Shown here: one piece after another, positions 9,147 through 56,100 of the stretch
Layout: each line of letters opens with the position of its first letter
How positions within the stretch are numbered: the first letter of the stretch is position 1
Assembly (NCBI GenBank): GCA_934168245.1
Contig: CAKPMY010000002.1
Coordinates: 78,237-142,236, forward strand
From: an uncultured Bacilli bacterium
GTDB taxonomy: Bacteria; Bacillota_I; Bacilli_A; RF39; UBA660
Direction of reading: 5' to 3'
DNA length: 64,000 nt
The notes under the pieces: model-generated
Told to the model about the DNA's origin: nothing
The model's input: only the letters and a program-made list of their open reading frames with translations
Databases searched by the model: none
Made by a program: the position numbers and the translations under genes

Positions 9147-9237
9147 AACCACACTTCTCCTATCTTCTACCATAATTATACCAAAACAAAAAAAATTATC
9201 AAACCCTAAGTCTGATAATTTTCTTTTTCTTATAAAT

Positions 9238-17358: not shown

Positions 17359-17365
17359 AAATTAA

Positions 17366-17442
<77 letters not shown>

Positions 17443-23668: not shown

Positions 23669-23682
23669 TTTTAAAAATCCTC

Positions 23683-25296
23683 CTACTCATTATATGTATC
23701 AGGCAAATCATTTTCAAACAATGCAAATATATCTTGCTTGCCATTATATATACTATTAATAAAAGCATACGCTTCTCTAACATCATTAAATACTATTATT
23801 TTATCTTTGTCAAATCCTTGCATTAATAATCCTTCATATATTGGTTTAGTTCTTTTCTCTCCAATAAGTATGGCATAATCAGCAACAAATGCAATTTCTT
23901 CTCCAAACTGCTTATTATAAAATTCTTCCTTCTCCCCAAGTTCTACCATTCCTGGAGTAACAACTATTTTTATACCTTTCATCATTTCTAAAACACGACA
24001 AGCATTCTTTGCTCCAATCGGATTAGAATTATAAGCATCATCTATTTGATAAAAATTACCAATCTTCTTAAGTTCCAATCTATGCTCTATTGGTCTAATC
24101 AACTTAACAGCCTCAACTAACTCATCTAATGAAATACCAAATTCCATTCCACAAGCAATACCAGCTAGAATATTATAAACATTATGTTCTCCAAGTAACT
24201 TAGTCTCAAAATGATATGTATTTTTATCTTTCTTAAATGTAACATCAAAATTAGTACCTTTATAAGTATATTCTATATTAACAGCCTTAACATCTGCATC
24301 ACTATTATTAATACCAATCCAAATAGTTTTAACTTTATTTTTCAATTTATAACTAACTTGTTTAGGATCATCAGCATTAAGTATCGCAAATCCATCACTA
24401 GGTAATGACTCAATCAACTCAAACTTAGCCTTAACAATATTCTCTTCACTTCCAAACGACTCTAAATGTGCCGTTCCAATAGTTGTAAGAATACCATACT
24501 TTGGTTTAACAAAATCACAAAGTGCTTTTATTTCTCCTCTAACATAAGCTCCCATCTCTGCTATAAAAACATCAGTAAATATATCTAAATGATTATTAAT
24601 AGCCATCATTAATCCATAATCAGTATTTAAATTCTTGGGAGTTGCAAAAGCATTATACTTAACATTTAAAATATCACTCAATATATTCTTAGAACTAGTC
24701 TTACCATAACTACCAGTAATACCAATTACCTTTAAATTATTCATAGATCTAAGTCTACGTTTAGCCTTATTTTTATAATAGAAATATACTAATTTTTCTA
24801 TTGGCTTATTAATAATATTAGCAATAAATACAACTAAAGTATTCAAATACATCATAACAGATATAACAAGAACCATTTTCCAAGTAAGTACTACATCATT
24901 AATATTTAATCCTAAAATAACTACTGGTATTAAATATAAAACACTACTCGTAAAAATAAGTCTCTTAATTCTCTTTGTAACAACTAACGGTTTCTTATTC
25001 TGATCTGTATCTATTCTCTTCTTCCATTTCATACCTAAGTATAAATTCAACAATATAACAACAACACTAACTATAACTGCTGAATATTTTATATCATAAA
25101 GTACCAAACTTTCTACTAACAAAATACCTATAATTACTAAATCTAAATCTAAAAACTGATTCTTATTTTTTACTAGCCATTTTAAATATCTATTATTTTC
25201 ATTATAAAGATTTTGTTGAATCATATGTAATGTTCTTTTCATCTTATAAAATAATAAAAATAGAAATGACAAAAGTAACAATATTTTTATAACCAT
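23683..25296 (-). CDS. murF: Mur ligase family protein, MurF-like (UDP-MurNAc-tripeptide--D-Ala-D-Ala ligase) with an N-terminal 4-TM segment
   Basis: Central P-loop VIGITGSYGKTSSKNIL and C-terminal DDAYNSNP motif, typical of MurF. The first ~150 aa contain about four hydrophobic helices where the usual MurF N-terminal domain should be. Confidence 0.65.
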   Translation of the reverse strand: MVIKILLLLSFLFLLFYKMKRTLHMIQQNLYNENNRYLKWLVKNKNQFLDLDLVIIGILLVESLVLYDIKYSAVIVSVVVILLNLYLGMKWKKRIDTDQNKKPLVVTKRIKRLIFTSSVLYLIPVVILGLNINDVVLTWKMVLVISVMMYLNTLVVFIANIINKPIEKLVYFYYKNKAKRRLRSMNNLKVIGITGSYGKTSSKNILSDILNVKYNAFATPKNLNTDYGLMMAINNHLDIFTDVFIAEMGAYVRGEIKALCDFVKPKYGILTTIGTAHLESFGSEENIVKAKFELIESLPSDGFAILNADDPKQVSYKLKNKVKTIWIGINNSDADVKAVNIEYTYKGTNFDVTFKKDKNTYHFETKLLGEHNVYNILAGIACGMEFGISLDELVEAVKLIRPIEHRLELKKIGNFYQIDDAYNSNPIGAKNACRVLEMMKGIKIVVTPGMVELGEKEEFYNKQFGEEIAFVADYAILIGEKRTKPIYEGLLMQGFDKDKIIVFNDVREAYAFINSIYNGKQDIFALFENDLPDTYNE

Positions 25297-28758: not shown

Positions 28759-29427
28759 ATGAAAACTAAGCAGGTTATTTCTCTTTTCTTAATAATAAAT
28801 ATCATTTTCTTTACTCATATTCTAAATATAAATGCTTTCAAATCAAAAACAAATAATGAAGAATACAAAATATCAGCAATAGAAAAAAACTATAAAATCC
28901 AAGTTTACTATCCAATAACTAAGTATAAAAAATTAAATACTACCATTAACAAGCAAATCACGAATTATATAAAAGAATTTAAAAACGATGTTAAAAACTC
29001 AACCATTCCTATAAATCAATACTACGATTTAATCATTTTATATGAAAAGTATGAATATTCCAATTATTTGTCTTTTATTTTTAGAATTGAAGATTTTACT
29101 GGTGGGGCTCATCCCAATCATCGTATTTATACCGTTGTTTATAACAAAGAAACTAACAGTTTTGAAACTTTAGAAAATTTAATTATGAAAAATAAAGATA
29201 CTTTAAATATCATCTCCGAAATAAGCAGAAATGAATTAAAAACTAACAAACGAATTACCGATATTTCCATGTTATATGAAGGAACCAAGCCAATTAAAGA
29301 AAACTTTCAAAACTTTGTCTTTTCTAAAGATGGTATAATTTTCTTTTTTCCTCAATACCAAGTTGCTCCTTACAGTCAAGGCGAATTTAATGTAACAATT
29401 CCATATTCAAAATTACTCAATCAATGA
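28759..29427 (+). CDS. DUF4163/DUF3298 domain protein (RsiV/PdaC-like extracytoplasmic domain)
   Basis: Signal/anchor N-terminus. YYPITKYKKLNTTINKQITNYIKEF resembles DUF4163, and FTGGAHPNHRIYTVVYNKETN...PQYQVAPYSQGEFNVTIPYSKL resembles DUF3298. Confidence 0.55.
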   Translation: MKTKQVISLFLIINIIFFTHILNINAFKSKTNNEEYKISAIEKNYKIQVYYPITKYKKLNTTINKQITNYIKEFKNDVKNSTIPINQYYDLIILYEKYEYSNYLSFIFRIEDFTGGAHPNHRIYTVVYNKETNSFETLENLIMKNKDTLNIISEISRNELKTNKRITDISMLYEGTKPIKENFQNFVFSKDGIIFFFPQYQVAPYSQGEFNVTIPYSKLLNQ

Positions 29428-30404: not shown

Positions 30405-31214
30405 ATGAAAAAAGTAGAGTTAAAAAATGCTAAAGAGAAATTTGCTAATGCCCGAGAACTTTGTCCAGGAATGTCTGAAGAAATGTATATAGTAACAGAT
30501 TATTTAGCAACCGTCATTAAAGACACAGTAATACCCGAAAAACTTATCCTAACAGTCTTAGATATCCTTGCTGATATTGATAAAGGTAAAACAAGTTACA
30601 AAGAAAAACCATTTCCTGAATTTTTTATAAAAGATACCAAGGCCACAACTATCAGAATGCTAGCCCTTCCAAAATATATCGATGAAATTGCTGATGAAGA
30701 ATTTGCTAAACAATATCGTAAAGTAAGTAAAGAAATTTTTAATCTTGCACCACCAAAATCAATAAAAACAGAACTTGGCGAAGAATATCCTGAATATGCC
30801 AAAGTTGCTGCTAACTATTGGGCTAATGCTATTCAAGCACCTAAACTTAATAACGGTGATGGTTTTACTTCATTCATCGCAACTGCCGCCGCAGGTCCTG
30901 TAAAAAAATATACTGATGAAGAAATAAAAACTTTCCAAGACAACCTTACAGAAAGCATTTATGAATTAACAGAAACATATGGAGAATGTTTACTATATGT
31001 AGATTATGGACCATGCCCTATTCTAGCCAATGCCGGTAGTTTAATCGGTGTTAATCAAATGTTTGGTTATCCTTGGAAAACTAGAATGTACATTACAAAA
31101 AAATCAGTTGAAGTAAAAGAAGGCTATGGTGCCAATAGAAAAGTTATATATTCAAAATTAGATGTTCTAAAAAACGGAGTCAAAAAGGTTCTTAATATAA
31201 AACCAAAACAATAA
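30405..31214 (+). CDS. Hypothetical protein, tandem paralog 1 (269 aa)
   Basis: MKKVELKNAKEKFANARELCPGMSEEMYIVTDYLATVIKDTVIP... The AGGAG RBS sits 7 nt upstream. Confidence 0.55.
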   Translation: MKKVELKNAKEKFANARELCPGMSEEMYIVTDYLATVIKDTVIPEKLILTVLDILADIDKGKTSYKEKPFPEFFIKDTKATTIRMLALPKYIDEIADEEFAKQYRKVSKEIFNLAPPKSIKTELGEEYPEYAKVAANYWANAIQAPKLNNGDGFTSFIATAAAGPVKKYTDEEIKTFQDNLTESIYELTETYGECLLYVDYGPCPILANAGSLIGVNQMFGYPWKTRMYITKKSVEVKEGYGANRKVIYSKLDVLKNGVKKVLNIKPKQ

Positions 31215-31279
31215 TTTATATAAAGTTATCATTTAGATAATAAACGTAATAATTATATAGACTAAGGAGGATGTTATCA

Positions 31280-32077
31280 ATGGAAATACCAAAATTAAAA
31301 AATGCTAAAGAAAAATTTGCTAAAGCAAGAGAACTTTGTCCAGGCATGGAAGAAGAAATGTATGTTATGACTGATTATTTAGCAACTGCCATCAAAGATA
31401 CAGTAATACCAGCAAGACTTATCCTAACTGTATCTAGTATTGAAAATGCTATAAAAAAAGGAAAAAGCAATTATAAAGAAAGTCCGTTTCCTGAACTTTT
31501 TATAAAAGATCCTTGGCGTGCATCAGTAGCAATAACAGCACTTTCTCAATGTGTTGATGAAATTGCTGATAAAGACTTTGCTGACGAATATCGAAAACTA
31601 GGTAATGACTTTTTTGGTGCTGTACTGCCAAAAAAAATAAATACTGCAAATGGTGAAGATTATCCAGAATACGCCAAAGTTGCTGCTGAATATTGGGCAA
31701 ACACACTTCAAACAAGAAACTTTAATAATGGCGATGAACTTACCTCAATCTTTGCCATGGCTATAGCAGGTTCAAAAAGAGAATATACAGAAGAGGAACT
31801 AAAAATATTTAAAGAAAGTTTAGCCGAAAATGTTTACGAAAAAGTAGAAACCTATGGAACATGTACTATAGATGTAGATTATGGACCATGCTACCTTCTA
31901 GCCAAAGCCGGAAAATTAATTGATGTAGATCCTTTTGATTATCCATGGAAAACTAGTATGATTGCTACTAAAGAAAAAGTTACAGTACGTGCCGGCTATG
32001 GTGCAGACAGAAAAGTTTTATATCAACAAAATAGTAATGAAAAATCAAAGAAATTAACAAAAGATACCACCAACTAA
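31280..32077 (+). CDS. Hypothetical protein, tandem paralog 2 (about 266 aa)
   Basis: MEIPKLKNAKEKFAKARELCPGMEEEMYVMTDYLATAIKDTVIP..., colinear with the upstream gene. Start placed at the ATG at 31280, 10 nt after an AAGGAGG RBS. Confidence 0.55.
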   Translation: MEIPKLKNAKEKFAKARELCPGMEEEMYVMTDYLATAIKDTVIPARLILTVSSIENAIKKGKSNYKESPFPELFIKDPWRASVAITALSQCVDEIADKDFADEYRKLGNDFFGAVLPKKINTANGEDYPEYAKVAAEYWANTLQTRNFNNGDELTSIFAMAIAGSKREYTEEELKIFKESLAENVYEKVETYGTCTIDVDYGPCYLLAKAGKLIDVDPFDYPWKTSMIATKEKVTVRAGYGADRKVLYQQNSNEKSKKLTKDTTN

Positions 32078-32178: not shown

Positions 32179-32883
32179 TTACTTTTTCTTAACAAACTTT
32201 TTATCTACGCCTACTAAAACAGCATTAGGTAATGGTGGTCTTAAACTCAAACTAGTTGGATACCATATATCTAATCCAGTCCGTTTACTATTTCCACTTG
32301 CCATAAACTGAAATGCAGCCTCCTCTTCCCCAAATGCAATTTCTTTAGCCTTACACATCACATTCCAAGTAGGACTACTTTTGATTAATCTACCATCTTT
32401 AGTAAAACAATTCACTCTTGCTACTTGCCATCCATCAGTATTACCAATTTTAATTTTTACAGTAATACCATCATGTTCAAATTCTAGATTACTACTTAAT
32501 TCATCTTCATTAACAGAATGTAATGGTGGAATGTTCATATTATAATTATTTGGTCTCCATAAATGAAGGCAATAAGGATGAGTATTAATATAGTCTTCTT
32601 CTCTTGGATGAAGTTGAAATACAACCTCTTCTTCCGCAAATAACTTTTCTTTTATCATCTGCATTTCTTCAAATGAAGGACATCTTTTAATATTTGCCCC
32701 ATTCTTTCTATGCAAAGAAACACTTACATGATCCCAGCCAAAACCATTTGATGCAACTAAAAAAAAGAATTCTCCATCTTTATGTCTATCAATAACAAAA
32801 GCACCATTGTGTTCATCACCAACAACACCATCACCATATAAGTCTACTCTTACAAGACCACATACCATATCTAAATTTTTCAT
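32179..32883 (-). CDS. Hypothetical protein (234 aa), higher GC than surroundings, internal two-lobed repeat
   Basis: GC is about 35% against about 27% nearby. Motifs GFGWDHVSVSL, FAEEEVVFQLHP...HLWRP and FGEEEAAFQFM...DIWYP. It has its own TTGACA-17-TAGAAT promoter and is followed by a terminator. Confidence 0.5.
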   Translation of the reverse strand: MKNLDMVCGLVRVDLYGDGVVGDEHNGAFVIDRHKDGEFFFLVASNGFGWDHVSVSLHRKNGANIKRCPSFEEMQMIKEKLFAEEEVVFQLHPREEDYINTHPYCLHLWRPNNYNMNIPPLHSVNEDELSSNLEFEHDGITVKIKIGNTDGWQVARVNCFTKDGRLIKSSPTWNVMCKAKEIAFGEEEAAFQFMASGNSKRTGLDIWYPTSLSLRPPLPNAVLVGVDKKFVKKK

Positions 32884-33105: not shown

Positions 33106-33180
33106 TGGAGCGAACGAGGGGAATCGAACCCCCATCACAGCCTTGGCAAGGCCGTATTCTAACCATTAAACCACATTCGC
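33106..33180 (-). tRNA. tRNA-Gly (GCC)
   Basis: Reverse complement GCGAATGTGGTTTAATGGTTAGAATACGGCCTTGCCAAGGCTGTGATGGGGGTTCGATTCCCCTCGTTCGCTCCA. Anticodon loop TTGCCAA. Confidence 0.85.
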
Positions 33181-33183
33181 AAT

Positions 33184-33257
33184 TGGAGGGGCCTACCGGA
33201 TTTGAACCGGTGATCAGGGTGTTGCAGACCCACGCCTTACCACTTGGCTAAAACCCC
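33184..33257 (-). tRNA. tRNA-Cys (GCA)
   Basis: Reverse complement GGGGTTTTAGCCAAGTGGTAAGGCGTGGGTCTGCAACACCCTGATCACCGGTTCAAATCCGGTAGGCCCCTCCA. Anticodon loop CTGCAAC. Confidence 0.8.
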
Positions 33258-35322: not shown

Positions 35323-36237
35323 ATCAAAAAAACTATTGGATTACCAAGAGCATTACTCTACTATTATGACAAAGACTTCTGGCAAGCCTTCTTTACTGAC
35401 CTAGGCTTCGATACAATTATAAGCTCCAAAAGTAACAAAAAAATCCTACAAAATGGCACAACTTTTGCCAATTCTGAAAGTTGTCTAGCCATAAAAATAT
35501 ATCTAGGTCATATCCTAGACTTAAAAGATAAATGTGACTATATTCTAGTACCCAGAATGTATTCAATAAAGAAAAATGAACAGGTTTGTACAAATTTCAA
35601 CTGCCTATACGATCTCGTAAACAATCTTTTCGACGTAAAAATATTAAACTACAATATCGACCTAACTAAAGGAAAAACTAAACTAATAGCCTTTCTAAAA
35701 CTAGGTGAAGACTTAGGTATATCATATATAGAAACCTACAATGCTTTTAAACGTGCCGAAAAAAAAGCGCAAGAACAAAGAAAAATCAATGAAGAAGCCC
35801 AGCGTCAACTCCTAGAAACAAGTAACCTAAAAATACTTCTTGCTGGCCACCCTTACAATTTATATGATGACCTAATCGGAAAAGCCATAACCGACTTTCT
35901 AACCCAAAATAACATTTCAGTTCTCTACAGTGACAAAATAGATAACACAATAATTGATACCGAGTGTCAACAACTATCAACAGACATTCACTGGACTCAT
36001 AGTAAAGAAGTAGTTGCCAGTATCAATTACTATCATGATAAAGTTGACGGAATCATTATAATATCTTCATTTCCATGTGGACCAGACTCCCTAAGTAATG
36101 AACTAGTAACCAGAAAAATAAAAAACATTCCTATCATTACTCTAGTATTTGAAGACCTAAACAGTGAGTCTGGCATCATCACTAGACTTGAAAGTTTTAT
36201 AGATATCCTAGAAAGGAGAAATCTATGTCAAAAATAA
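35323..36237 (+). CDS. 2-hydroxyacyl-CoA dehydratase/activase-associated DUF2229-like protein, N-terminal half. Homology begins at an ATC codon (35323); the first in-frame ATG is at 35557
   Basis: The frame is open from 35311 and encodes (I)KKTIGLPRALLYYYDKDFWQAFFTDLGFDTIISS..., the family-typical N-terminus (MKIGIPRALLYY...). A GAGGA RBS lies 9 nt upstream of ATC at 35323. The listed ORF from 35557 lacks 78 conserved residues. Confidence 0.5.
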   Translation: MKKTIGLPRALLYYYDKDFWQAFFTDLGFDTIISSKSNKKILQNGTTFANSESCLAIKIYLGHILDLKDKCDYILVPRMYSIKKNEQVCTNFNCLYDLVNNLFDVKILNYNIDLTKGKTKLIAFLKLGEDLGISYIETYNAFKRAEKKAQEQRKINEEAQRQLLETSNLKILLAGHPYNLYDDLIGKAITDFLTQNNISVLYSDKIDNTIIDTECQQLSTDIHWTHSKEVVASINYYHDKVDGIIIISSFPCGPDSLSNELVTRKIKNIPIITLVFEDLNSESGIITRLESFIDILERRNLCQK

Positions 36238-37292
36238 TTAGTTTTCCACATCTAGGTGACTACTATATCCCAATCGAAACCTTTTTAAAAAGAACAACTC
36301 ATTTAAAAGTTAAACCTTCTCCACCTATCACAAAAAAAACAATTGAACTCGGTGCCAAATATTCACCAGACTCAGTCTGTCTCCCATTCAAATACAACCT
36401 TGGTAACTTCATAGAATCTCTAAATCAAGGCGCAACCGTACTCTTTACTGCCGGTGGAGGTTGTCGTTACCGCTACTATGCCGAAGTAACCAAAACAATT
36501 CTAAAAGACCTAGGCTTTGACTTTGAATTTTACAATCTAATCGAAAATGGCAAACTAAATCTCCTAAAAGTCTATAAAAACTTTAAAAAACTAAATCCAA
36601 ACCTAAACTTAATCTATTTTATTCATCAACTACTATACACAGTCTTCTTCATCTGGCACATGGATAAAATTGACAAAATAATCAGAACAAGAATCGGTTT
36701 TGAAATTGAAAATAACTCCTTTCTAAAAATTAAAAATAAAATGCTAACATCCTTCAAAAAAACAAAATCCATTACCAAACTATCCTACCGCTATTTTAAA
36801 TACAAACACCTCATCAAAAAAATTCCTATCGCAAAACCAAAAAACTGTCTAAAAGTCGGTATAATTGGTGAACTATACACTGCCATGGAACCATTCGCAA
36901 CCTATTTTCTTGAAAAAGAATTGGCCAAAATGCATATTGAAATAAAAAGATACACCAATCTAAGTTACCTCCTTTGGCAAAAAAAATATCTAACACCTCA
37001 CATGTTAAAAGTAACAAAGCCCTACTGTAAATACACTCTAGGTGCTGACGGACTAGATAACGTTTACCGAACTATAAAACTCATAAATAAAAAATATGAC
37101 GGTATTATTCATACTAAACCATTTGGTTGTACCCCAGAAATAGGCGCCATTCCCATAATTCAAAAAATATGTAACGACCATGAAATGCCTATAATTTTCT
37201 TTTCATACGATGTTGAAACTTCCGATGAAGGAATAAAAACTAGATTAGAAGCCTTTGAAGACTTAATAAGAATAAGGAGAGATAAAAAATGA
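36225..37292 (+). CDS. 2-hydroxyacyl-CoA dehydratase/activase-associated protein, second subunit-like
   Basis: MSKIISFPHLGDYYIPIETFLKRTTHLKVKPSPPITKKTIELGAKYSPDSVCLPFKYNLGNFIESLNQGATVLFTAGGGCRYRYYAE resembles the conserved partner of BadF/BadG-type activases. It overlaps both the upstream and downstream genes, suggesting translational coupling. Confidence 0.55.
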   Translation: MSKIISFPHLGDYYIPIETFLKRTTHLKVKPSPPITKKTIELGAKYSPDSVCLPFKYNLGNFIESLNQGATVLFTAGGGCRYRYYAEVTKTILKDLGFDFEFYNLIENGKLNLLKVYKNFKKLNPNLNLIYFIHQLLYTVFFIWHMDKIDKIIRTRIGFEIENNSFLKIKNKMLTSFKKTKSITKLSYRYFKYKHLIKKIPIAKPKNCLKVGIIGELYTAMEPFATYFLEKELAKMHIEIKRYTNLSYLLWQKKYLTPHMLKVTKPYCKYTLGADGLDNVYRTIKLINKKYDGIIHTKPFGCTPEIGAIPIIQKICNDHEMPIIFFSYDVETSDEGIKTRLEAFEDLIRIRRDKK

Positions 37293-38239
37293 TTAAAGGT
37301 TACCTAGGAATTGATATTGGTTCAATATCTACAAAAGGAGTCATAATAGACAAAAATAACACCATTCTAGCAAGTACCTATCTATGGACTAAAGGAAATC
37401 CAATAAATGCCGTAAAAGAAGTCCTAAAAGATCTACAAACTCAAATAAAAAACAAAAATATAAAAATAGTTTCAGTCGGTACCACTGGTTCAGCCAGAAA
37501 ACTAATTGGCACTATGTTAAATGCCACAATCATAAAAAATGAAATCACTGCTCATGCTATTGGAACCTTATCAAGATATCCAAATATCAGAACCATTATC
37601 GAAATTGGAGGCCAAGACTCTAAAATAATTCTCATTAAAGATGGAATCGTAATAGACTATGCCATGAATACCTTGTGTGCCGCTGGTACAGGTGCTTTTT
37701 TAACTAGTCAGGCCAAACGTCTAGAGATTCCTATCGAAGAATTTGGCAAAATTGCCTTAACTAGTACCAATCCTGCCTCTATTGCTGCTAGATGCACAGT
37801 CTTTGCTGAAAGTGACTTAGTTCATAAAGCCCAACTAGGCTATGAAAAAAAAGATATAGTCGCTGGTCTTTGTCGAAGCATTGCCTTAAACTACCTAAAC
37901 AACGTTGCCAAAGGTAAAAAAATAGAAGACCCAATCATCTTTCAAGGTGGAGTATCTAAAAATATAGCCGTCAAAAAAGCCTTTGAAGACATTTTAAATA
38001 CCAAAATAATTACTGATAAAGACGGACATCTAATGGGTGCCCTAGGTGTAGCCATTCTCTCTAAAGAAAAAGAAGAAATAAACTTCTCCTTTAACATCAT
38101 TACCGATAGTTTTAAAACAACCAGTAAAAACTGTGAAAACTGTCCTAATAATTGTGAAATAATCTGTATCGAGAAAAATAACCATCTAATTGACTCTTGG
38201 GGCAATCGTTGTGAACGAGGCAAAGTAAAAACTTCTTAA
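37289..38239 (+). CDS. BadF/BadG/BcrA/BcrD-type ATPase (CoA-substrate-specific enzyme activase, HgdC-like) with Cys-rich C-terminus
   Basis: ASKHA-fold N-terminus LGIDIGSISTKGVIIDKNN. GTTGSAR and GGQDSK motifs. The C-terminus CENCPNNCEIICIEKN...WGNRCERG is a putative metal/FeS-binding region. Confidence 0.65.
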   Translation: MIKGYLGIDIGSISTKGVIIDKNNTILASTYLWTKGNPINAVKEVLKDLQTQIKNKNIKIVSVGTTGSARKLIGTMLNATIIKNEITAHAIGTLSRYPNIRTIIEIGGQDSKIILIKDGIVIDYAMNTLCAAGTGAFLTSQAKRLEIPIEEFGKIALTSTNPASIAARCTVFAESDLVHKAQLGYEKKDIVAGLCRSIALNYLNNVAKGKKIEDPIIFQGGVSKNIAVKKAFEDILNTKIITDKDGHLMGALGVAILSKEKEEINFSFNIITDSFKTTSKNCENCPNNCEIICIEKNNHLIDSWGNRCERGKVKTS

Positions 38240-38307: not shown

Positions 38308-39891
38308 TTATTTTTTTTCAATATACTCTTCGTATGGAACACATCTATCTATAATAGTTCCATCATCTAATATCTCAATTATTCTATTCGCAACTGTACT
38401 ATTAAGTTCATAGTCTCTAGAAGTAAATAGAACTTCTCCTTGGAAATTAATTAGTCCTTTATTTAATGATGTAATACTTTCCAAATCCAAATGGTTAGTA
38501 GGTTCATCTAATATTAAGAAATTAGGTCCTTCTAACATCATCTTAGATAACATACATCTCATCCTTTCTCCACCAGATAATACATTTACTTTCTTAAATA
38601 CATCATCTCCAGAAAATAACATTCTACCTAAGAAACCTCTAAGTACTGTTTCATCCTTAATATCATAATATTGTCCAATCCACTCAATAATATTCTTATC
38701 AACATCAAAATACTCTGTATTATCTTGTGGTAAATAGCCAGGTACAATAGTCTTACCCCATTCAATACTACCCTTATCATATTTACCCTTACCAGATAAA
38801 ATATTAAACAACGTCGTCTTAACCATATCGTTATTAGCAAGTATCGCAATCTTATCACCTTTAAGTACTGTAAATGATACCTTATCTAAAATTTTCTTAC
38901 CATCAACTACTTTAGTTAGGTTTTCTACTTTTAATATTTCCTTACCAGCAGGCTTTTCTATCTTAAAATCAATATAAGGATATTTTCTAGAAGAAGGAAC
39001 TATCTCATCTAATTGAATCTTATCAAGCATTTTTTTTCTAGAAGTTGCTTGTTTTGACTTTGAAGCATTAGCCGAGAATCTCGCAATAAAGGCTTGTAAT
39101 TCTTTAATTTTCTCTTCTTTTTTCTTATTAGAATCTCTCATCTGTTTCTGTAGCAATTCACTAGATTCATACCAGAAATCATAGTTACCAACATAAAGTT
39201 TAATCTTACCATAATCAATATCCGCAATATGTGTACATACTTTGTTTAAGAAATGTCTATCATGTGAAACAATAATAACTGTATTATTAAAATTAATTAA
39301 AAACTCTTCTAACCATTTAATAGCCTCAATATCCAAACTGTTAGTAGGCTCATCTAAAAGTAATATATCTGGATTTCCAAATAATGCTTGAGCAAGTAAA
39401 ACCTTAACTCTAAGTTTTACTGGTAACTCGCCCATTAAAACATAATGATACTCTTCCTTAACACCTAAATTATTTAAAAGTGTACTAGCATCAGACTCTG
39501 CATTCCAGCCATCTAAGTCCATAAATTCAGCCTCTAAATTGGCTAACTTCATACCATCTTCTTCACTAAACTCAGTCTGCTCATACATCTTATTCTTCTC
39601 TTCCATTATTTCATATAGTTTACTATTTCCCATAATAACTACATCAATAACTCTCTTATCATCAAACTCATAATGATCTTGCTTCAAAATAGAAAGTCTT
39701 TCATTTTTAGAAATAACAACTTCTCCAGTCGTTGTTTCAATCTCACCTGATAATATTTTTAAAAATGTTGATTTACCAGAACCATTTGCCCCAATCAAAC
39801 CATAACAATTACCATTAGTAAATTTTATATTAACATCTTCAAATAAGACTCTCTTTCCAAATTTTAAACTAACATTATTTACTTGTATCAT
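38308..39891 (-). CDS. ABC-F family ATPase (tandem ABC domains, no TM domain; translation-factor/ribosome-associated type)
   Basis: Two Walker A motifs (GANGSGKST, GRNG-like in the second domain) and two ABC signatures (LSGG). 527 aa with inter-domain linker. Confidence 0.75.
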   Translation of the reverse strand: MIQVNNVSLKFGKRVLFEDVNIKFTNGNCYGLIGANGSGKSTFLKILSGEIETTTGEVVISKNERLSILKQDHYEFDDKRVIDVVIMGNSKLYEIMEEKNKMYEQTEFSEEDGMKLANLEAEFMDLDGWNAESDASTLLNNLGVKEEYHYVLMGELPVKLRVKVLLAQALFGNPDILLLDEPTNSLDIEAIKWLEEFLINFNNTVIIVSHDRHFLNKVCTHIADIDYGKIKLYVGNYDFWYESSELLQKQMRDSNKKKEEKIKELQAFIARFSANASKSKQATSRKKMLDKIQLDEIVPSSRKYPYIDFKIEKPAGKEILKVENLTKVVDGKKILDKVSFTVLKGDKIAILANNDMVKTTLFNILSGKGKYDKGSIEWGKTIVPGYLPQDNTEYFDVDKNIIEWIGQYYDIKDETVLRGFLGRMLFSGDDVFKKVNVLSGGERMRCMLSKMMLEGPNFLILDEPTNHLDLESITSLNKGLINFQGEVLFTSRDYELNSTVANRIIEILDDGTIIDRCVPYEEYIEKK

Positions 39892-39948
39892 TCTTCTTCA
39901 CCACCGCTCCTTAATTCTACTATAAATAAAAAAATAAGGCAAGTATAA

Positions 39949-40554
39949 CTACTTAACCTTATAAAATATTGAAATCACTTTAGCAAACTCATAAAGTATA
40001 ATATTACTTTTATTTATCGCAAAACCTTTACCTAAAGCCTTACCACCTATCGTAAGTGCCGCCACTATTGCTGCTATAGATAATCCCGTAAACAAGATAC
40101 TGAAATTAAACTTTTCCGCAACAACTGCCGCTATTGTCGTAGCCGCTGTACCAGAAATAATTCCACATACATCCCCGACTACATCACAACAAAAGTTAGA
40201 TACCTTAGAAGCATTTTTCTTAAACTTAACTGCCACATCTGCACCTTTAACTTTTCTAGAATTCATTGAATGAAAAACTTTTTCATCACTACTAGTAACC
40301 GCTACACCTACTATATCAAATAAAATACCAATGCCCACAAAGAGTAACGTTACAAGTATTCCACCAACTATTGATAATTTAGGTAAAGTAACCTGTGATA
40401 CATAAGAAAGTCCAAAGGATAATGTAAAGGCAATTATAATAATCTTAACAATCCATCTCATATCGGCTTTCTTTTTATTAATTCTTTCTTTTCTCTTAGT
40501 TTCAATAACTAATCCTTGAAATTCATCTTTTTCTAATTTCTTCTTACTATTCAT
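39949..40554 (-). CDS. Small four-TM membrane protein with DxxxD motif. Candidate OapA (OLE-associated protein A)
   Basis: 201 aa. Basic N-terminus, then four hydrophobic helices. CCDVVGDVCG contains DVVGD. RBS AGGAAAGGGT. It lies immediately downstream of the 600-nt ncRNA and is co-oriented with it. Confidence 0.5.
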   Translation of the reverse strand: MNSKKKLEKDEFQGLVIETKRKERINKKKADMRWIVKIIIIAFTLSFGLSYVSQVTLPKLSIVGGILVTLLFVGIGILFDIVGVAVTSSDEKVFHSMNSRKVKGADVAVKFKKNASKVSNFCCDVVGDVCGIISGTAATTIAAVVAEKFNFSILFTGLSIAAIVAALTIGGKALGKGFAINKSNIILYEFAKVISIFYKVK

Positions 40555-40599
40555 ATACCCTTTCCTATAGAAAAAATAGTATAAAATACTATTTTCAAT

Positions 40600-41196
40600 T
40601 AAAAAAAACTAATGGCTCTAAACATAGTAAACTTTGAATCTTAGGTCAAGTAGGATTTCCCTTATCTCTACGTATCCGTTACCAGATACATGGTTCCCCT
40701 TTAAAGAGATAAGTATGATGTTACCATTCATACGACTTGATTACCACTTAGTATCCACTGCAATCCTATGTAAAGCGCACTCTAGGAGATTTCCTCACCA
40801 ACACTTTATTATTTATTCTTTTTTGCAAGAGCAATTTCATAAAGCAATATTTATTAAAGTTGGCCTGTTCTAATAAACAAGTTCTTTAATCCCAATACTC
40901 TCACTCAAGACAAGCTACACTGTACATAACTTTCGCCACAATACAGGTTCCTAGCCTACCTCGTAACAAGTCCATCAGTATAAAACGTATAGGCTTATCA
41001 CAAATAATAGGTCTCCACGGATAATGGGTCGTTTGTCGTATGCCATTACGAGCGCCCATTCTCCTCATCTTCAGCATCCACCCTACACTGGGCGTATAAA
41101 GCAAACACCAAAGGTTTCACAGATATGCTCGATAACGGTTGTTTAATCCCGTCTTCCTAATAAAGTAACTGACTAGAATAATGTGCCATCAATTAC
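40600..41196 (-). ncRNA. Large structured ncRNA candidate (about 600 nt), consistent with OLE RNA
   Basis: ORF-free. GC is locally raised. The minus-strand transcript is purine-rich. A near-consensus promoter lies just upstream. Length and the downstream oapA-like gene fit the OLE locus. I found no tRNA-like end (so not tmRNA), no GAGGAAAGTCC (so not RNase P) and no group II domain V. Confidence 0.5.
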
Positions 41197-41202
41197 ATCC
41201 CT

Positions 41203-41231
41203 AGTATATCATATGTCTTAGGAACTGTCAA
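41203..41231 (-). promoter_or_regulatory. Sigma-A promoter (TTGACA-17-TATACT) driving the ncRNA
   Basis: The minus strand reads TTGACA gttcctaagacatatga TATACT. A second overlapping TTGACA (GTCAACTTGACAG) is present. Confidence 0.6.
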
Positions 41232-41429
41232 GTTGACACACTTTTTCAAAAAAACTCAAAAACTACCACTATACTAAAATAAACAAGCAATAAATGATAC
41301 ATAGAAACAAACTTAATAGATTGATCTATAAAATTATAAAAGTAAAATCTAAATCGCCTCATATAATCCCAATCAAAAAGAAGAGTCGTCTCAAAATAAC
41401 TCTTCCTTCTAAATCATACTTCTTATCTC

Positions 41430-42116
41430 TTAACTATTTCTAATCTTATTAACAAAATAATTAATTTTACCAGCCCAAGTATTACCTTCAGCATATCTAG
41501 GAGCAATCTTTTCAACTGTATCTAATCCTACACTATAATAATTCTTATATAAATTATTAATAAGACCCATAATACCATCTTCTAAAGTATCAAACTTCTT
41601 ATATTTACCCCCATTACAACCAGGACTTCCCTTCTGACCACTAACATTAAAACAACTTCTTGCTAGATTAGAACACTTAGAGCCACAGCCAGTCTCATGT
41701 AAGATAATAGCCGTCGCAACATACGGATCAACTCCCTTTTCAAGGCAATTAACCGCAATAAAATACCCTTTTCCAGCCATAATATCCGTACCTAAATTCT
41801 TATCAAGTTTAAGTGTAAGCTCTTCTATTGTAAGCCCATCAAAAACCTCAATCCTAGGTGGAATTAATACTGATGCTGGAGCAGTCTCCATATCAATAGC
41901 CGTAATAGAAGCATCATCAACTCTATACTCCTCCATATTCTTACAAAGAGCACTATCAGATGCCATAATATTATTCGTATTTATTTCATTAAATGAAAGA
42001 TAATCATTCTTTTCTAAATTAGCCTTTTCTTGTAACTTTATTCCTAAAGAAACCATTAAAACTGAAATTATAATTAAAAGACAACTAACAATCTTAGTCT
42101 TTTTCATTAAATTCAC
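41430..42116 (-). CDS. Secreted peptidoglycan hydrolase, glucosaminidase (FlgJ/LytD-like) domain
   Basis: N-terminal TM/signal. PYVATAIILHETGCGSKCSNLARSCFNVSG...FDTLEDGIMGLINNLYKNYYSVG resembles the mannosyl-glycoprotein endo-beta-N-acetylglucosaminidase domain. Confidence 0.55.
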   Translation of the reverse strand: MNLMKKTKIVSCLLIIISVLMVSLGIKLQEKANLEKNDYLSFNEINTNNIMASDSALCKNMEEYRVDDASITAIDMETAPASVLIPPRIEVFDGLTIEELTLKLDKNLGTDIMAGKGYFIAVNCLEKGVDPYVATAIILHETGCGSKCSNLARSCFNVSGQKGSPGCNGGKYKKFDTLEDGIMGLINNLYKNYYSVGLDTVEKIAPRYAEGNTWAGKINYFVNKIRNS

Positions 42117-53135: not shown

Positions 53136-56100
53136 TTATTCTTGTTTTAATTCAAATCTTGCTAAATACTCATTAACTAATTTCATAGTCTTATTGTATT
53201 CAACTGTTAACTCTTCAAAGTTAGCATTAACAAAGTCTTTATCTTCTTCTTTACTCTTTAATTCATGTTGATAACTAATATCTGCTAACTTCATAAATCC
53301 TAAGTACTTACAATCACTCTTTAGAGAATGAACTTCTATTGCATAATCATGCATATTAGCCTCTTCCTTATACTGATTAATTCTACCCCATTTAGCAGGA
53401 ACATCAGCAACGAAATCTCCTAATGTCATATTATACATTTCCATATCACCAAGTAATTCTAATGACTTATCCATGTCAACATTATTATCTCTTAAGAACT
53501 TCTCCATAGCCTCATCACTCTTATCAGTAGCAACTTCTACAGGAGCAGGAGTCTCTTCTTTTACTTCAGCAGGTTTCTCTGCAACTGGTTCTTCAACCTT
53601 AGTCTCAGGAACTTCTACCTTTTCCTCAGCAGGTTTCTCTGTAACTGGTTCTTCAGTCTTAGTCTCAGGAGTCTCTTCTTTTACTTCAGCAGGTTTCTCT
53701 GTAACTGGTTCTTCAGCCTTAGTCTCAGGAGCCTCTTCTTTTACCTCAGCAGGTTTCTCTGTAACTGGTTCTTCAGCCTTAGTCTCAGGAGCCTCTTCTT
53801 TTACCTCAGCAGGTTTCTCCGCAACCGGTTCTTCAGTCTTAGTCTCTGGAGTTTCTACCTTTTCTTCAGCAGACTTCTCTGCAACTGGTTCTTCAACCTT
53901 AGTCTCTGGAGTCTCTTCTTTTACCTCAGCAGGTTTCTCCGCAACCGGTTCTTCAGTCTTAGTCTCTGGAGTTTCTACCTTTTCTTCAGCTGACTTCTCT
54001 GCAACTGGTTCTTCAACCTTAGTCTCTGGAGTCTCTTCTTTTACCTCAGCAGGTTTCTCTGCAACTGGTTCTTCAGCCTTAGTCTCAGGAGCCTCTTCTT
54101 TTACCTCAGCAGGTTTCTCTGTAACTGGTTCTTCAACTTTAGTTTCAGAAACTTCTACTTTCTCTTCAGCAGGCTTTTCTGTAACTGGTTCTTCAACTTT
54201 AGTTTCAGAACCTTCTACTTTTTCTTCAGCAGGTTTCTCTGCAACTGGTTCTTCAGCCTTTGTCTCAGGAGCCTCTTCTTTTACCTCAGCAGGTTTCTCT
54301 GCAACTGGTTCTTCAGCCTTTGTCTCAGGAACCTCTTCTTTTACCTCAGCAGGCTTCTCTGCAACTGGTTCTTCAACCTTAGTCTCAGAGACTTCTACCT
54401 TCTCCTCAGCAGGCTTCTCTGCAACTGGTTCTTCTACCTTAGTCTCAGGAGCCACATCTTTTTCTTCTACAGGTTTCTCTGTAACAGTTTCCTCAACCTT
54501 AGCCTCAGGAGCCTCTTTCTTTATTTCAATAACATCTTTCTTTTCCTCTACTGGTGCATCTTTTAACACACTCTCTCTACCAGGAAGTACATTAGAAGTT
54601 CTTCTTTCCCCTACTACTCCAAGTGTTTTACCATCAAAGAACTTATGAATAATCTTATCAAGTTCTATTGTATCGATTGGCATTGGTAAATAACTATCAA
54701 AGCCTTCTGCTAAATACTTCTCTCCCATACCATTCATAACATTTGCTGTTAAAGCAACTATTGGTGGTATTTCATAATCATCCAATCTACGAAGAATTCT
54801 AATCGTTTCAATACCGTCCATACCTGTCATCATATGATCTAGGAAAATAATATCATAATGATTACCATACTTGAATTTATAAATACAATCTTTACCAGAT
54901 TCAGCAGTATCTACATTAAAGTTATACTTCTTTAATAATCTCTCTGAAACTTTTAAATTCAAAGGACTATCATCAACTACTAATGCCGTAAAGTCTGTAC
55001 AATCTAAGAAATCTTTTACTCTTGTCGTCGTATTAGTTTGAGTAACACTACCTATCGGTGTAGGATCAATTACTTTTAATGGTAAATCTACAAAGAAAGT
55101 AGTACCAACTTCAAACTCACTTTCAAACCAAATTTTACCACCCATCAAGTCTACGAACTTTTTAGTAATAACAAGTCCTAATCCAGTACCCTCTATTTCA
55201 TTAGAAACAGCACTGTCAAGTCTTGAGAACTTTTCAAATAACTTATTAAAGTCTTCTTTCTTAATACCATATCCAGTATCTGAAATTTTAATATGTAAAA
55301 GTACAGAATCAACACCAGTCTTTTCAGATACCATAGCAACTTTAATTTTACCAACCTCAGTATACTTAACTGCATTATTAGTAATATTTAATAATACTTG
55401 ATATACCTTAGTAGCATCTGCATAAACTTTAGAAGGAATTTGTTCATCCATTTCTATATAAAGTTTAACTGGACTATTTCCAAGTCTTGCTTCTATAACA
55501 CTAGATAAGTCTCTTACAATCTTAGTAAGACTACATTCTCTATTAGCAAGTGTATCATTACCAGACTCAATTTTAGAAATATCCAAAATATTATTAATTA
55601 TATCAACCAAATTTGTACCAGCAGTCGCAATACTTTGAATATCATTACGAGCCGCTGTTTCATCAAATACATTACTATTAAGAAGCGAATCACTAAATCC
55701 TATAATAGCATTCATTGGAGTTCTAATTTCATGTGACATATTTGATAAGAAATCTGTCTTAGATCTATTAGATTTATCAATATCTGATTTTAAACTATCT
55801 ATTTCATTAACTAAATGAATATCTGGATTCTCAATAATGAAATATAAGAAGAATACTTGTAATGAACAACAAATTACATAAATACTAACTTTATTAAGTA
55901 AAATCTGCGCTGTAAGCATAACTGCCATAACAAACATTATCAATGTAATAGCAACTCTTCTTTTTAGTGCATACTGTTTACAAGTTGTATGAGTAGCAAC
56001 TAAAACACAAGTACACATAATTGTTAAACATGCAAGTACAATATATTCATTTGTACCGGCAATAAATCCTGTACTAACAGTCTCAAAATTTGATTTAGGT

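What the first reader, a model, noticed from the sequence alone, without database searches (positions are those of the whole stretch)
39949..41231. Candidate OLE RNA / OapA ribonucleoprotein locus
Positions about 40600-41196 have no ORF longer than 80 codons, although stop-free stretches are rare in this DNA. GC is locally raised and the minus strand is purine-rich. The region sits behind a textbook TTGACA-17-TATACT promoter. About 45 nt further downstream on the same strand is a 201-aa protein with four predicted TM helices and a DVVGD (DxxxD) motif. A roughly 600-nt RNA co-transcribed with a small four-TM DxxxD protein is the defining arrangement of OLE RNA with OapA. OLE RNA is reported from anaerobic and extremophilic Firmicutes. 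The neighbours here (glucosaminidase, ABC-F) are not the published isoprenoid-gene context, so if this is OLE the locus is placed atypically.
Basis: partly seen in the sequence, partly recalled or inferred. Interest (0 to 1): 0.8.

Follow-up and report, generated by a model that had tools for sequence, protein, structure and literature searches.

The report
OLE RNA gene with oapA

Summary
The observation and the interpretation both hold. Rfam's OLE model (RF01071) matches window 41205-40596 (minus strand) end to end at 375 bits (gathering score 50, E 1e-106). No other large-RNA family matches.

In 62 related loci, 89% of cells in the OLE secondary structure are paired, against about 42% when the partners are slid. 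119 of 153 pairs show compensatory changes. The RNA is the full-length type: P7, P8 and a long P9 with a GGCC loop are all present.

The 201-aa protein, which starts 41 nt downstream, has four hydrophobic helices, an invariant DVVGD motif and a CNNM/CorB-like predicted fold. Its homologues lie directly behind an OLE RNA in 76 of 80 genomes. Some of these, in Clostridia, sit in the canonical xseB-ispA-ole-oapA-dxs cluster. It is therefore OapA.

ole has its own near-consensus extended -10 promoter, which is conserved in relatives. A weak hairpin with a U-run separates ole from oapA.

The gene context is non-canonical but is conserved in about 17 related gut Bacilli species: glucosaminidase-like gene upstream, ABC-F downstream, no isoprenoid genes anywhere in the 64 kb. 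OLE in gut metagenome-only lineages is already published. Novelty is low.

The parts
41203..41231 (-). Sigma-70-type promoter of ole: TTGACA, 17 nt, TGn-TATACT (extended -10). The inferred transcription start is near 41196.
   Evidence: 11 of 12 positions match, with TG before the -10; a TTGACA-17-TATAAT promoter matching at least 11 of 12 positions sits at the same place in 48 of 67 related loci, 14-22 nt before the invariant UGGCACAUUAUUCUAGUC. The start site itself is inferred, not measured.
40596..41205 (-). ole gene: OLE (ornate, large, extremophilic) RNA of the full-length type. P3, P4, P5/5.1, P6/6.1, P7, P8, long P9 and the 3' multi-stem domain are all present. Only the small variable hairpin at model positions 424-435 is absent.
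   Evidence: RF01071, 375 bits against a gathering score of 50, E 1.3e-106, model positions 1-616 of 616; 140 of 155 model pairs are canonical in this sequence; across 62 homologues 89.4% of cells are paired and 119 of 153 pairs show compensatory change; the P3 helix (RNA nt 41-48 with 395-402) covaries.
40571..40596 (-). A-U-rich hairpin (AUAGUAU-UUU-AUACUAU) followed by a U-run, lying between ole and oapA. It is a candidate leaky intrinsic terminator or 3'-end-forming element.
   Evidence: the 11-pair inner stem is in the minimum-free-energy fold, but the z-score is only -1.9; a hairpin with a U-run occupies this position in many relatives with unrelated stem sequences, including G-C-rich ones (L012, L016, L022, L032, L036, L038, L070, L072, L077). 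Other relatives have only a 13-30 nt gap with no hairpin. The function is inferred.
40558..40565 (-). Ribosome-binding site GGAAAGGG of oapA, 3 nt before the ATG at 40554-40552.
   Evidence: Read directly from the sequence.
39949..40554 (-). oapA: OLE-associated protein A, 201 aa. It has a basic N-terminal tail, four transmembrane helices and DVVGD at residues 124-128.
   Evidence: ORF, hydropathy and motif. D80, D124, G127, D128, G135, K172 and K176 are invariant in 51 diverse homologues; homologues lie directly downstream of OLE in 76 of 80 genomes; the AlphaFold2 model has pLDDT 88.8, and the top four PDB fold matches are all CNNM/CorB/CorC transmembrane domains; sub-threshold Pfam CNNM hit; 41-45% identity to the oapA genes of canonical ispA-ole-oapA-dxs clusters.
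39928..39960 (-). Hairpin overlapping the oapA stop codon, followed by U7. It is a candidate terminator that would end the ole-oapA transcription unit.
   Evidence: a 10-pair stem followed by AUUUUUUU. The z-score of -0.6 is not significant, so this is weak evidence from geometry alone.
41373..41412 (-). Terminator-like hairpin with a U-run after the upstream glucosaminidase-like gene. It would insulate ole from upstream transcription.
   Evidence: stem of 15 pairs plus an inner 2-pair stem, -15.5 kcal/mol, z-score -2.5, followed by UUUUU.
41430..42116 (-). Context gene upstream: a 228-aa glucosaminidase-like (cell-wall hydrolase-like) protein with an N-terminal membrane anchor. It is syntenic with ole in relatives and is not shown to be part of the system.
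   Evidence: PF01832, 28.6 bits, just below the 30.2 cutoff; present upstream of OLE in 17 related loci.
38308..39891 (-). Context gene downstream: a 527-aa ABC-F family ATPase. It is syntenic with oapA in relatives and probably has its own promoter. It is not shown to be part of the system.
   Evidence: two ABC_tran domains plus ABC_tran_Xtn; NCBIfam ABC-F family ATPase at 670 bits; downstream of oapA in 17 related loci; a promoter-like site lies at 39942-39914.

Best explanation
The region is the ole-oapA locus of an uncultured, low-GC (29%) gut bacterium of the class Bacilli.

Shown by tool results:
- A roughly 600-nt OLE RNA of the full-length type is encoded at 41205-40596 (-).
- Its fold is maintained by compensatory substitutions across the clade.
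- Its P9 apical loop keeps a self-complementary tetranucleotide. This fits the kissing-loop homodimer seen by cryo-EM in clostridial OLE RNAs.
- It is followed by oapA, which encodes a four-helix membrane protein with the invariant DxxxD motif and a CNNM/CorB-like fold.

Inferred from the sequence:
- ole is transcribed from its own near-consensus extended -10 promoter, starting near 41196.
- Most transcripts end at, or are trimmed to, the weak hairpin and U-run at 40596-40571.
- A minority read through to translate oapA. This would give much RNA and little protein.

Inferred from published work on Halalkalibacterium halodurans and the cryo-EM models (PMC12265935, PMC11332333), not tested here:
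- OapA dimers bind the RNA and hold OLE dimers at or in the cytoplasmic membrane.
- The particle helps the cell cope with stresses such as excess Mg2+, cold, short-chain alcohols and poor carbon sources.
- The mechanism I consider most likely is that OapA is a CNNM-like divalent-cation transporter, and that the RNA replaces the regulatory cytosolic domains found in MpfA/CorB-type proteins. I give this specific mechanism about 40%; it is unproven in any organism.
For: RNA identity:
- RF01071, 375 bits, full-length match.
- the same model scores 276-491 bits in 9 of 9 related loci that had nhmmer hits.

Structure:
- 89.4% of cells paired against 39-45% for slid partners; 119 of 153 pairs with double changes; 0 of 500 shuffles reach the observed values.
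- the 8-bp core of P3 is 89% paired and every pair covaries.

Dimer loop:
- the P9 loop is GGCC in 34 of 58 sequences, AGCU in about 13 and GUAC in about 7-8. All are palindromes.
- the P5.1 loop (GCCCA) and the P6.1 loop (GGCAU) are invariant.

Protein:
- motif, four helices, CNNM-like fold.
- OLE lies upstream on the same strand in 76 of 80 genomes.
- homologues at 41-45% identity sit in xseB-ispA-OLE-oapA (L063) and OLE-oapA-dxs-ftsJ (L078).

Expression signals.

A real locus, not an assembly artefact: one search found an identical OapA, with an identical or near-identical OLE, on 23 contigs read (32 index blocks) from independent human-gut metagenomes. One search confirms the OLE match in those loci.
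Against: Nothing contradicts the identification. The caveats concern function and expression.
- There are no expression data, so the transcription start, the 3' end and read-through are inferred.
- The hairpin between ole and oapA is weak: all A-U pairs, z-score -1.9. It is absent in about half of the relatives, where oapA follows OLE within 13-30 nt.
- No OapB (KOW-motif) or OapC (L7Ae-type) gene lies in the window. These partners are essential in H. halodurans, and their presence in this genome is unknown.
- The single-nucleotide bulge in P13 that OapB needs in H. halodurans is not evident here, although the GNRA loop (GUAA) is present.
- Fold-match E-values to CorB are marginal (1.4e-3 to 0.23). 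The Pfam CNNM hit is below its cutoff.
- The biochemical function of OLE is unknown in any organism.
Confidence: 0.96

Rival explanations
1. The gap is a protein-coding gene that has been disrupted by sequencing errors or is decaying into a pseudogene.
For: The ORFs of 79 and 67 aa within the region are the only hint.
Against: The same sequence recurs on independent metagenome contigs. Substitutions across 62 homologues are compensatory in RNA helices. The covariance-model E-value is 1e-106. The small ORFs lie on opposite strands and are not conserved features.
Confidence: 0.01
2. It is a different large structured RNA (ROOL, GOLLD, raiA, a group II intron, etc.) that only resembles OLE superficially.
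For: None.
Against: cmscan of the whole window against 4227 Rfam families at gathering thresholds returns only OLE and five tRNAs. The OLE match covers the whole model.
Confidence: 0.01
3. It is a true OLE homologue but a non-functional relic in a reduced gut genome. The reasoning is that the locus has lost the canonical gene cluster and the genome may lack OapB and OapC.
For: No isoprenoid or DNA-repair neighbours and no oapB or oapC were found in 64 kb. The literature notes that reduced-genome gut lineages often carry trimmed OLE variants and lack OapB and OapC (PMC11332333).
Against: The RNA is full length and retains P7, P8 and long P9. About 150 nucleotide positions are invariant across 62 species-level relatives. 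Helices are kept by compensatory change. The promoter is at or near consensus in 48 of 67 relatives. oapA is intact and its motif residues are invariant. All of this indicates purifying selection.
Confidence: 0.02
4. On function: OLE acts mainly as a ribozyme or as a scaffold for a broad stress-signalling hub (the 'bTOR' proposal). In this reading OapA is only a membrane anchor and the RNA does not regulate a cation transporter.
For: Published arguments: the size and conservation of OLE are typical of ribozymes, and it has several protein partners (OapB, OapC, bS21) and pleiotropic phenotypes (PMC11332333, PMC12054373, PMC12265935). Here, about a quarter of positions are invariant, many of them outside helices.
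Against: No catalytic activity has been reported. OapA is CNNM-like (PMC11332333). MpfA anticorrelates with OLE. Knockouts are sensitive to Mg2+. Nothing in this window discriminates between the two readings.
Confidence: 0.35

Closest known systems
OLE RNA (Rfam RF01071), full-length type as defined by Fernando & Breaker 2024 (PMC11332333)
   Same: The whole model matches at 375 bits. All the major helices are present, including P7, P8 and the long P9 arch with a palindromic GGCC loop. P3 is supported by covariation. The conserved loops of P4, P5.1 and P6.1 and the GNRA-capped P13 are present. The gene lies directly upstream of oapA on the same strand. The host is a Bacillota (class Bacilli) organism from an anaerobic habitat.
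   Different: It lacks the small, poorly conserved hairpin at model positions 424-435, as do all 62 aligned clade relatives. It is A-U-rich (38% GC). It has its own consensus promoter, unlike the H. halodurans copy, which is reported to be embedded in a long polycistronic transcript. The host is a human-gut commensal, not an extremophile.
OapA (BH2780 of Halalkalibacterium halodurans and its orthologues)
   Same: About 200 aa. Four transmembrane helices. A strictly conserved DxxxD motif (DVVGD). Conserved basic residues (K172, K176 and a lysine-rich N-terminus). A CNNM/CorB-like predicted transmembrane fold. Its gene follows ole directly.
   Different: It was not compared directly with the H. 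halodurans sequence, which could not be retrieved with these tools. The link is through 41-45% identity to oapA genes in canonical ispA-ole-oapA-dxs clusters of Clostridia. RNA binding was not tested.
Canonical ole gene cluster (xseA/xseB-ispA-ole-oapA-dxs-rrmJ/tlyA-argR-recN and others)
   Same: The ole-oapA core pair has the same order and orientation.
   Different: None of the isoprenoid, DNA-repair or rRNA-methylase neighbours occurs within 64 kb. Instead the order is: ABC ATPase, 526-aa membrane protein, glucosaminidase-like gene, ole, oapA, ABC-F. This arrangement is conserved in about 17 related gut and rumen Bacilli species.
OLE variants 1 (TANB77) and 2 (RF39) of reduced-genome gut lineages
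   Same: The ecological setting is the same: uncultured gut bacteria known only from metagenomes. Some loci retrieved with this OapA carry such trimmed RNAs. L062 and L067 lack P7 and/or P8. L031, L049, L073 and L086 lack the distal part of P9.
   Different: The RNA in this window keeps P7, P8 and the full P9, so it is not a variant.
MpfA/CorB/CNNM divalent-cation transporters
   Same: The predicted OapA fold matches their transmembrane (DUF21/CNNM) domain. The top four PDB matches are 7M1T, 7M1U and 7CFF.
   Different: OapA has no CBS pair and no CorC/HlyC domain. It carries DxxxD, which CNNM domains lack (PMC11332333). Sequence similarity is below the Pfam threshold (17.8 bits against 28.4).

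Membership tests
OLE RNA (RF01071) | The covariance-model score exceeds the curated gathering threshold over the full model | tested here: met
   375 bits against 50; E 1.3e-106; model positions 1-616 of 616; not truncated.
OLE RNA (RF01071) | An ornate secondary structure of about 25 helices, maintained by covariation | tested here: met
   153 pairs in 18 helices, 89.4% of cells paired against 39-45% for slid controls, and 119 pairs with changes on both sides. The alignment was made by MAFFT and was not fitted to the structure.
OLE RNA (RF01071) | A long-range P3 helix that encloses domain 1 (the proposed membrane-spanning stem) | tested here: met
   RNA nt 39-48 pair with 395-404. The 8-bp core is 89% paired in 62 sequences, and all 8 pairs show compensatory change.
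OLE RNA (RF01071) | Dimerisation loops: a self-complementary P9 loop and conserved P4, P5.1 and P6.1 loops | tested here: met
   the loop is GGCC here, and the palindrome is kept as GGCC, AGCU or GUAC in about 54 of 58 relatives. GCCCA and GGCAU are invariant, and P4 has an A-rich loop. Dimerisation itself was not tested.
OLE RNA (RF01071) | The gene lies immediately upstream of oapA on the same strand | tested here: met
   a 41-nt gap; the same arrangement in 76 of 80 related loci.
OLE RNA (RF01071) | OapB-binding site: a GNRA tetraloop on P13 plus a bulged nucleotide and P12.2 | tested here: inconclusive
   a GUAA tetraloop closed by G-C, with G..AA invariant in the clade. No bulge is evident in the 9-bp P13 stem. 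No oapB gene lies in the window.
OLE RNA (RF01071) | The host is a member of Bacillota, typically anaerobic or extremophilic | tested here: met
   identical and related loci come from human-gut, rumen and rabbit-gut metagenomes. The nearest genomes are labelled Bacilli, Erysipelotrichaceae or Tenericutes MAGs. The physiology of the host was not tested.
OLE RNA (RF01071) | An abundant, stable transcript of about 600 nt that localises to the membrane | not testable with these tools
   Only indirect evidence is available: a conserved near-consensus promoter.
OapA | A small protein of about 200 aa with four predicted transmembrane helices | tested here: met
   four hydrophobic segments; the AlphaFold2 model (pLDDT 88.8) has long helices at residues 32-59, 62-88, 115-149 and 153-181.
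OapA | A strictly conserved DxxxD motif | tested here: met
   DVVGD at residues 124-128. D124 and D128 are invariant in 51 homologues with pairwise identity as low as 32%.
OapA | A conserved cluster of positive charges, proposed to be the RNA-binding face | tested here: met
   K172 and K176 are invariant (GGKAxGK); 12 K/R in the first 33 residues. Their sidedness and any role in binding were not tested.
OapA | Homology to the oapA genes of canonical ole clusters | tested here: met
   45% identity (E 2e-54) to the protein downstream of xseB-ispA-OLE in L063, and 41% (E 7e-52) to the protein between OLE and dxs in L078.
OapA | A CNNM-like transmembrane fold | tested here: met
   the top four PDB matches are MtCorB (7M1T, 7M1U) and the CorC transmembrane domain (7CFF), with probability 0.99-1.00 and TM-score up to 0.55. 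The E-values are marginal (1.4e-3 to 0.23).
OapA | Binds OLE RNA and is required for its membrane localisation | not testable with these tools
   This needs a biochemical or imaging assay.
Canonical ole gene cluster | Isoprenoid and DNA-repair genes (dxs, ispA, xseA/B, recN and others) lie within about six genes of ole | tested here: not met
   Pfam scans of essentially all window ORFs found no DXP_synthase, polyprenyl_synt, Exonuc_VII or similar domain. The core pair is therefore a member of the ole-oapA system, but the locus is not an instance of the canonical cluster.
OLE variant 1 / variant 2 | P7, P8 and P9 shortened (variant 1), or P7 and P8 absent (variant 2) | tested here: not met
   P7 (17 pairs with the conserved CCUAUACG...CUGAUGGAC internal region), P8 and the full P9 are present. 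The RNA is therefore the full-length type.

The most novel reading that the evidence does not exclude
In this clade of uncultured gut Bacilli, ole-oapA has left the isoprenoid/DNA-repair cluster. It has become an autonomous two-gene unit with a consensus promoter and an attenuating hairpin between the RNA and oapA. It is held in conserved synteny with a membrane-anchored cell-wall-hydrolase-like gene upstream and an ABC-F translation ATPase downstream.

If that synteny reflects function and not shared descent, it would point to a direct link between the OLE particle and cell-wall turnover or ribosome-associated ABC-F activity. That would echo the reported bS21 partnership and the proposed contact between OLE domain 2 and the cell wall.

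My evidence does not exclude this reading. However, the association holds only among close relatives, so common ancestry is the simpler explanation.
Probability: 0.08. Interest if true: 0.45.

Novelty: already known. Interest (0 to 1): 0.22.

Why it matters
As a discovery it matters little. OLE RNA and OapA have been curated since 2006, any Rfam-based annotation would label this locus, and a GTDB-wide survey has already reported OLE in gut lineages known only from metagenomes.

It has some modest value as a data point:
- It is a full-length OLE in a human-gut commensal with a 29% GC genome.
- It is a compact, self-contained unit with its own promoter.
- It lies outside the canonical gene cluster.
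- Its relatives show natural swaps of the P9 loop palindrome (GGCC, AGCU, GUAC). These support the kissing-loop dimer independently of cryo-EM.

Minimal, autonomous loci of this kind could be convenient for heterologous reconstitution of the OLE particle.

Tried and rejected
- NCBIfam has no model that hits the 201-aa protein. Pfam gives only a sub-threshold CNNM hit. Family membership therefore had to be shown through gene context and motifs.
- The consensus terminator scan found nothing in 39500-41700, because the local hairpins are A-U-rich or have long loops. Folding individual stretches revealed them. Only the one after the upstream gene has a respectable z-score.
- I looked for OapB (KOW), OapC (L7Ae/YbxF), MpfA, dxs, ispA, xseAB and recN in the window by scanning essentially all ORFs against Pfam and by listing small intergenic ORFs. 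None was found. The rest of the genome could not be reached.
- I could not retrieve the H. halodurans OapA sequence for a direct comparison.
- The perfect palindrome TGTCAA-C-TTGACA that overlaps the -35 element looked like a possible operator. It occurs only in the window and its closest relative, and is degenerate elsewhere, so I dropped it.
- The ABC-F and glucosaminidase-like genes as functional partners: the synteny holds only among close relatives, and terminator-like hairpins separate the units. I did not adopt this.
- Three related loci (L024, L057, L059) have oapA homologues with no OLE within 6 kb upstream, by both nhmmer and Rfam. This remains unexplained; possible causes are ole lying elsewhere, or assembly errors.
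Full report
**Observation**

The finding spans 39949-41231, from the stop codon of a 201-aa ORF to the -35 element of a promoter.

Everything described is there:
- Between 40600 and 41196 the longest ORFs are 79, 67 and 40 aa, on both strands.
- The gene-free gap 40554-41430 (876 nt) is the largest in the window. The other long gaps hold tRNA genes.
- GC is 37.7% against 29.3% for the window.
- The purine bias is slight (54%). The real skew is G over C.
- TTGACA-17-TATACT with a TG extended -10 lies at 41231-41203 on the minus strand.
- The 201-aa ORF (39949-40554, minus strand) starts 41 nt after the RNA. It has four hydrophobic segments and DVVGD at residues 124-128.

**What the RNA is**

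A scan of the whole window against all 4227 Rfam families at curated thresholds returns one non-tRNA hit. It is OLE (RF01071) at 41205-40596, minus strand, at 375 bits against a gathering score of 50. The E-value is 1.3e-106 and the match covers model positions 1-616 of 616. No ROOL, GOLLD or raiA match appears.

In this sequence 140 of the 155 model base pairs are canonical. I matched the Rfam helices to the current nomenclature using loop features described in PMC12265935. All of the following are present:
- P4, with an A-rich loop;
- P5/5.1, with the GCCCA loop;
- P6/6.1, with the AAUGGCAU loop;
- P7, P8 and the long P9, with a GGCC loop;
- the GAGGAAA hairpin;
- the 3' multi-stem domain, with a GUAA-capped P13.

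Only a small, poorly conserved hairpin (model positions 424-435) is missing. The RNA is therefore the 'full-length' type. It is neither the P7/P8-less variant 2 of RF39 nor the trimmed variant 1 of TANB77, as defined in PMC11332333.

**Independent support from relatives**

The exact OapA sequence is on 23 contigs read (32 index blocks) from independent human-gut metagenomes, including Hadza samples, with the same neighbours.

I built an alignment of 51 diverse homologues, taken from a database search and a full HMMER scan (1092 representatives at E <= 0.001). I used it to fetch 80 loci from species-representative genomes. All are uncultured gut or rumen MAGs. Most are labelled Bacilli. Some are labelled Erysipelotrichaceae, Tenericutes or Mollicutes, and the more distant ones Oscillospiraceae or Clostridia. 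The closest is Bacilli bacterium HGM10852, with 90% OapA identity.

nhmmer with the window RNA finds an OLE-like sequence upstream on the same strand in 76 of the 80 loci. Rfam confirms OLE at 276-491 bits in 9 of 9 sampled loci.

I made a MAFFT alignment of 62 of these RNAs and scored it against the Rfam structure projected from the window sequence:
- 89.4% of cells are paired, against 39-45% when the partners are slid by 1-3 columns.
- 119 of 153 pairs have changes on both sides.
- 0 of 500 shuffles reach the observed values.

The long-range P3 helix is not in the Rfam model but is central to the recent transmembrane proposal. Here it forms between RNA nt 39-48 and 395-404. Its 8-bp core is 89% paired, and all eight pairs covary.

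The P9 apical loop stays self-complementary while its sequence changes: GGCC in 34 sequences, AGCU in about 13 and GUAC in about 7-8, out of 58. This is what a homodimeric kissing loop predicts. It agrees with the cryo-EM dimers summarised in PMC12265935.

**What the protein is**

No Pfam or NCBIfam model claims the protein. There is only a sub-threshold CNNM hit. This agrees with the published view that OapA is a distant CNNM relative (PMC11332333).

The features that define OapA are met:
- It has four transmembrane helices.
- The DxxxD motif is invariant. D80, G127, G135, K172 and K176 are also invariant.
- The N-terminus is lysine-rich.
- Its gene follows ole.

The AlphaFold2 model has pLDDT 88.8. 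Its top four PDB matches are MtCorB (7M1T chains A and B, 7M1U) and the CorC transmembrane domain (7CFF). Nothing else scores above noise.

Two more distant members of the same family connect it to the canonical cluster. One, at 45% identity, sits in xseB-ispA-OLE-oapA (L063, Congzhengia). The other, at 41% identity, sits in OLE-oapA-dxs-ftsJ (L078, Oscillibacter). These are the published canonical arrangements, so the protein is OapA.

**Expression architecture (inferred)**

The upstream glucosaminidase-like gene ends with a good hairpin and U-run at 41412-41373.

The ole promoter is not a chance match. A TTGACA-17-(TG)TATAAT promoter matching at least 11 of 12 positions lies at the same position in 48 of 67 relatives, 14-22 nt before the invariant UGGCACAUUAUUCUAGUC. 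This predicts a start near 41196 and strong transcription, which is consistent with the reported abundance of OLE.

Directly after the RNA (40596-40571) is an A-U hairpin with a U-run. Many relatives have a hairpin with a U-run at this position but with unrelated stems, some of them G-C-rich. Others have only 13-30 nt and no hairpin.

No promoter-like site lies in the 41-nt spacer before oapA; the only nearby candidate is a weak 9-of-12 match inside the OLE 3' end. I therefore infer that oapA is translated from read-through transcripts, with its RBS GGAAAGGG at 40565-40558. That would set a high RNA-to-protein ratio. A weaker hairpin followed by U7 overlaps the oapA stop codon. A promoter-like site precedes the ABC-F gene. 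None of this has been measured.

**Context**

Pfam scans of essentially all window ORFs show none of the canonical neighbours (dxs, ispA, xseAB, nusB, folD, recN). They also show no KOW-type OapB, no L7Ae-type OapC and no MpfA.

On the minus strand, read 5' to 3', the genes run:
1. small alarmone synthetase;
2. cysteine desulfurase-like gene;
3. DUF1292;
4. two genes of unknown function;
5. NUDIX;
6. GalE-like epimerase;
7. ABC ATPase;
8. a 526-aa membrane protein;
9. glucosaminidase-like gene;
10. ole;
11. oapA;
12. ABC-F.

tblastn of these neighbours against the 80 loci shows that the glucosaminidase-like gene, ole, oapA and ABC-F keep this order in about 17 species-level relatives, those whose OapA is at least about 55% identical. 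More distant relatives do not share it.

It is a conserved lineage trait, and shared descent explains the synteny adequately. Published neighbour lists already include cell-wall and translation genes (PMC12265935).

**Mechanism**

Shown here: a conserved, structured OLE RNA that probably dimerises, encoded next to a CNNM-like membrane protein with the OapA hallmarks.

Taken from the literature: OapA binds OLE and localises it to the membrane. The particle is needed under Mg2+, cold, alcohol and carbon-source stress in H. halodurans. MpfA anticorrelates with OLE (PMC11332333, PMC10898510, PMC12265935).

The working model I favour is that OapA is a divalent-cation transporter and that the RNA supplies the regulatory module. 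I give this about 40%. The ribozyme and signalling-hub ideas remain open. Nothing in this window discriminates between them.

**Verdict**

This is a standard member of a long-known RNA-protein system, detectable with the stock Rfam model, in a habitat and phylum where it has already been reported. Novelty: already known. Interest is low. The small points of value are:
- the autonomous promoter-RNA-hairpin-oapA layout;
- the relocated but conserved context;
- the natural swaps of the P9 loop palindrome.

Noticed in passing
L007-L086 (alignment A2, columns about 383-392); window RNA nt 340-345: The apical loop of P9 in related OLE RNAs switches between three different self-complementary tetranucleotides: GGCC, AGCU and GUAC. 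One sequence has GUAUAC. This is a natural covariation signature of an intermolecular kissing loop. Three or four sequences have non-palindromic loops.
   Followed up: partly
L013, L043, L047, L048, L055, L057, L058, L064, L086: Contigs that carry OLE and oapA with Bacilli-like neighbours are deposited as 'uncultured Muribaculaceae' or 'Bacteroidaceae' MAGs. The labels are probably wrong, or the contigs were mis-binned. This is the kind of non-Bacillota OLE hit that the literature attributes to assembly or binning problems.
   Followed up: no
L024, L057, L059: These loci have oapA homologues (50-55% identity) with no OLE RNA within the 6 kb fetched upstream, by both nhmmer and Rfam. Either ole and oapA are separated in these genomes, or these are orphan oapA genes.
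   Followed up: partly
window 41226-41238 (-): A perfect palindrome TGTCAA-C-TTGACA overlaps the -35 element of the ole promoter. It is present only here and in the closest relative and is degenerate elsewhere, so it is probably not an operator.
   Followed up: yes
window 9238-16878 (-): A giant 2546-aa protein with a glucoamylase-like domain, a GH94 supersandwich domain and a GH94 catalytic domain (cyclic beta-1,2-glucan synthase or glucan phosphorylase type). This is unusual for a small low-GC gut genome.
   Followed up: no
window 4507-9275 (-): Three tandem paralogous secreted proteins of 490-545 aa. Each has a C-terminal divergent InlB B-repeat (Flg_new_2). They lie immediately downstream of the GH94 giant gene.
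   Followed up: no
window 53136-58390 (-): Two adjacent hybrid histidine kinases of 1127 and 624 aa, each with HisKA, HATPase_c and receiver domains and multi-pass N-termini. A 391-aa antisense ORF (53473-54648, +) overlaps the first and is probably spurious.
   Followed up: no
window 30405-32077 (+): Two tandem paralogues of 269 and 268 aa share an N-terminal motif (KNAKEKFA.ARELCPGM.EEMY) and have no Pfam match. The downstream gene at 32179-32883 (-) carries DUF7694.
   Followed up: no
window 35557-38239 (+): A three-gene cluster (DUF2229, HGD-D-like, BcrAD/BadFG activase ATPase) converges on the ABC-F gene. It is syntenic with the ole locus in the closest relatives (L007, L008, L011, L021, L025).
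   Followed up: partly
window 22448-25296 (-), 41430-42116 (-), 28759-29427 (+): D-Ala-D-Ala ligase, a Mur ligase, a glucosaminidase-like protein and a PdaC/DUF3298 protein show that this organism makes peptidoglycan, even though related MAGs carry 'Tenericutes' or 'Mollicutes' labels.
   Followed up: no
window 17285-17442 (-), 20046-20118 (+), 33109-33257 (-): Five tRNA genes in three places account for the other long gene-free gaps in the window.
   Followed up: no
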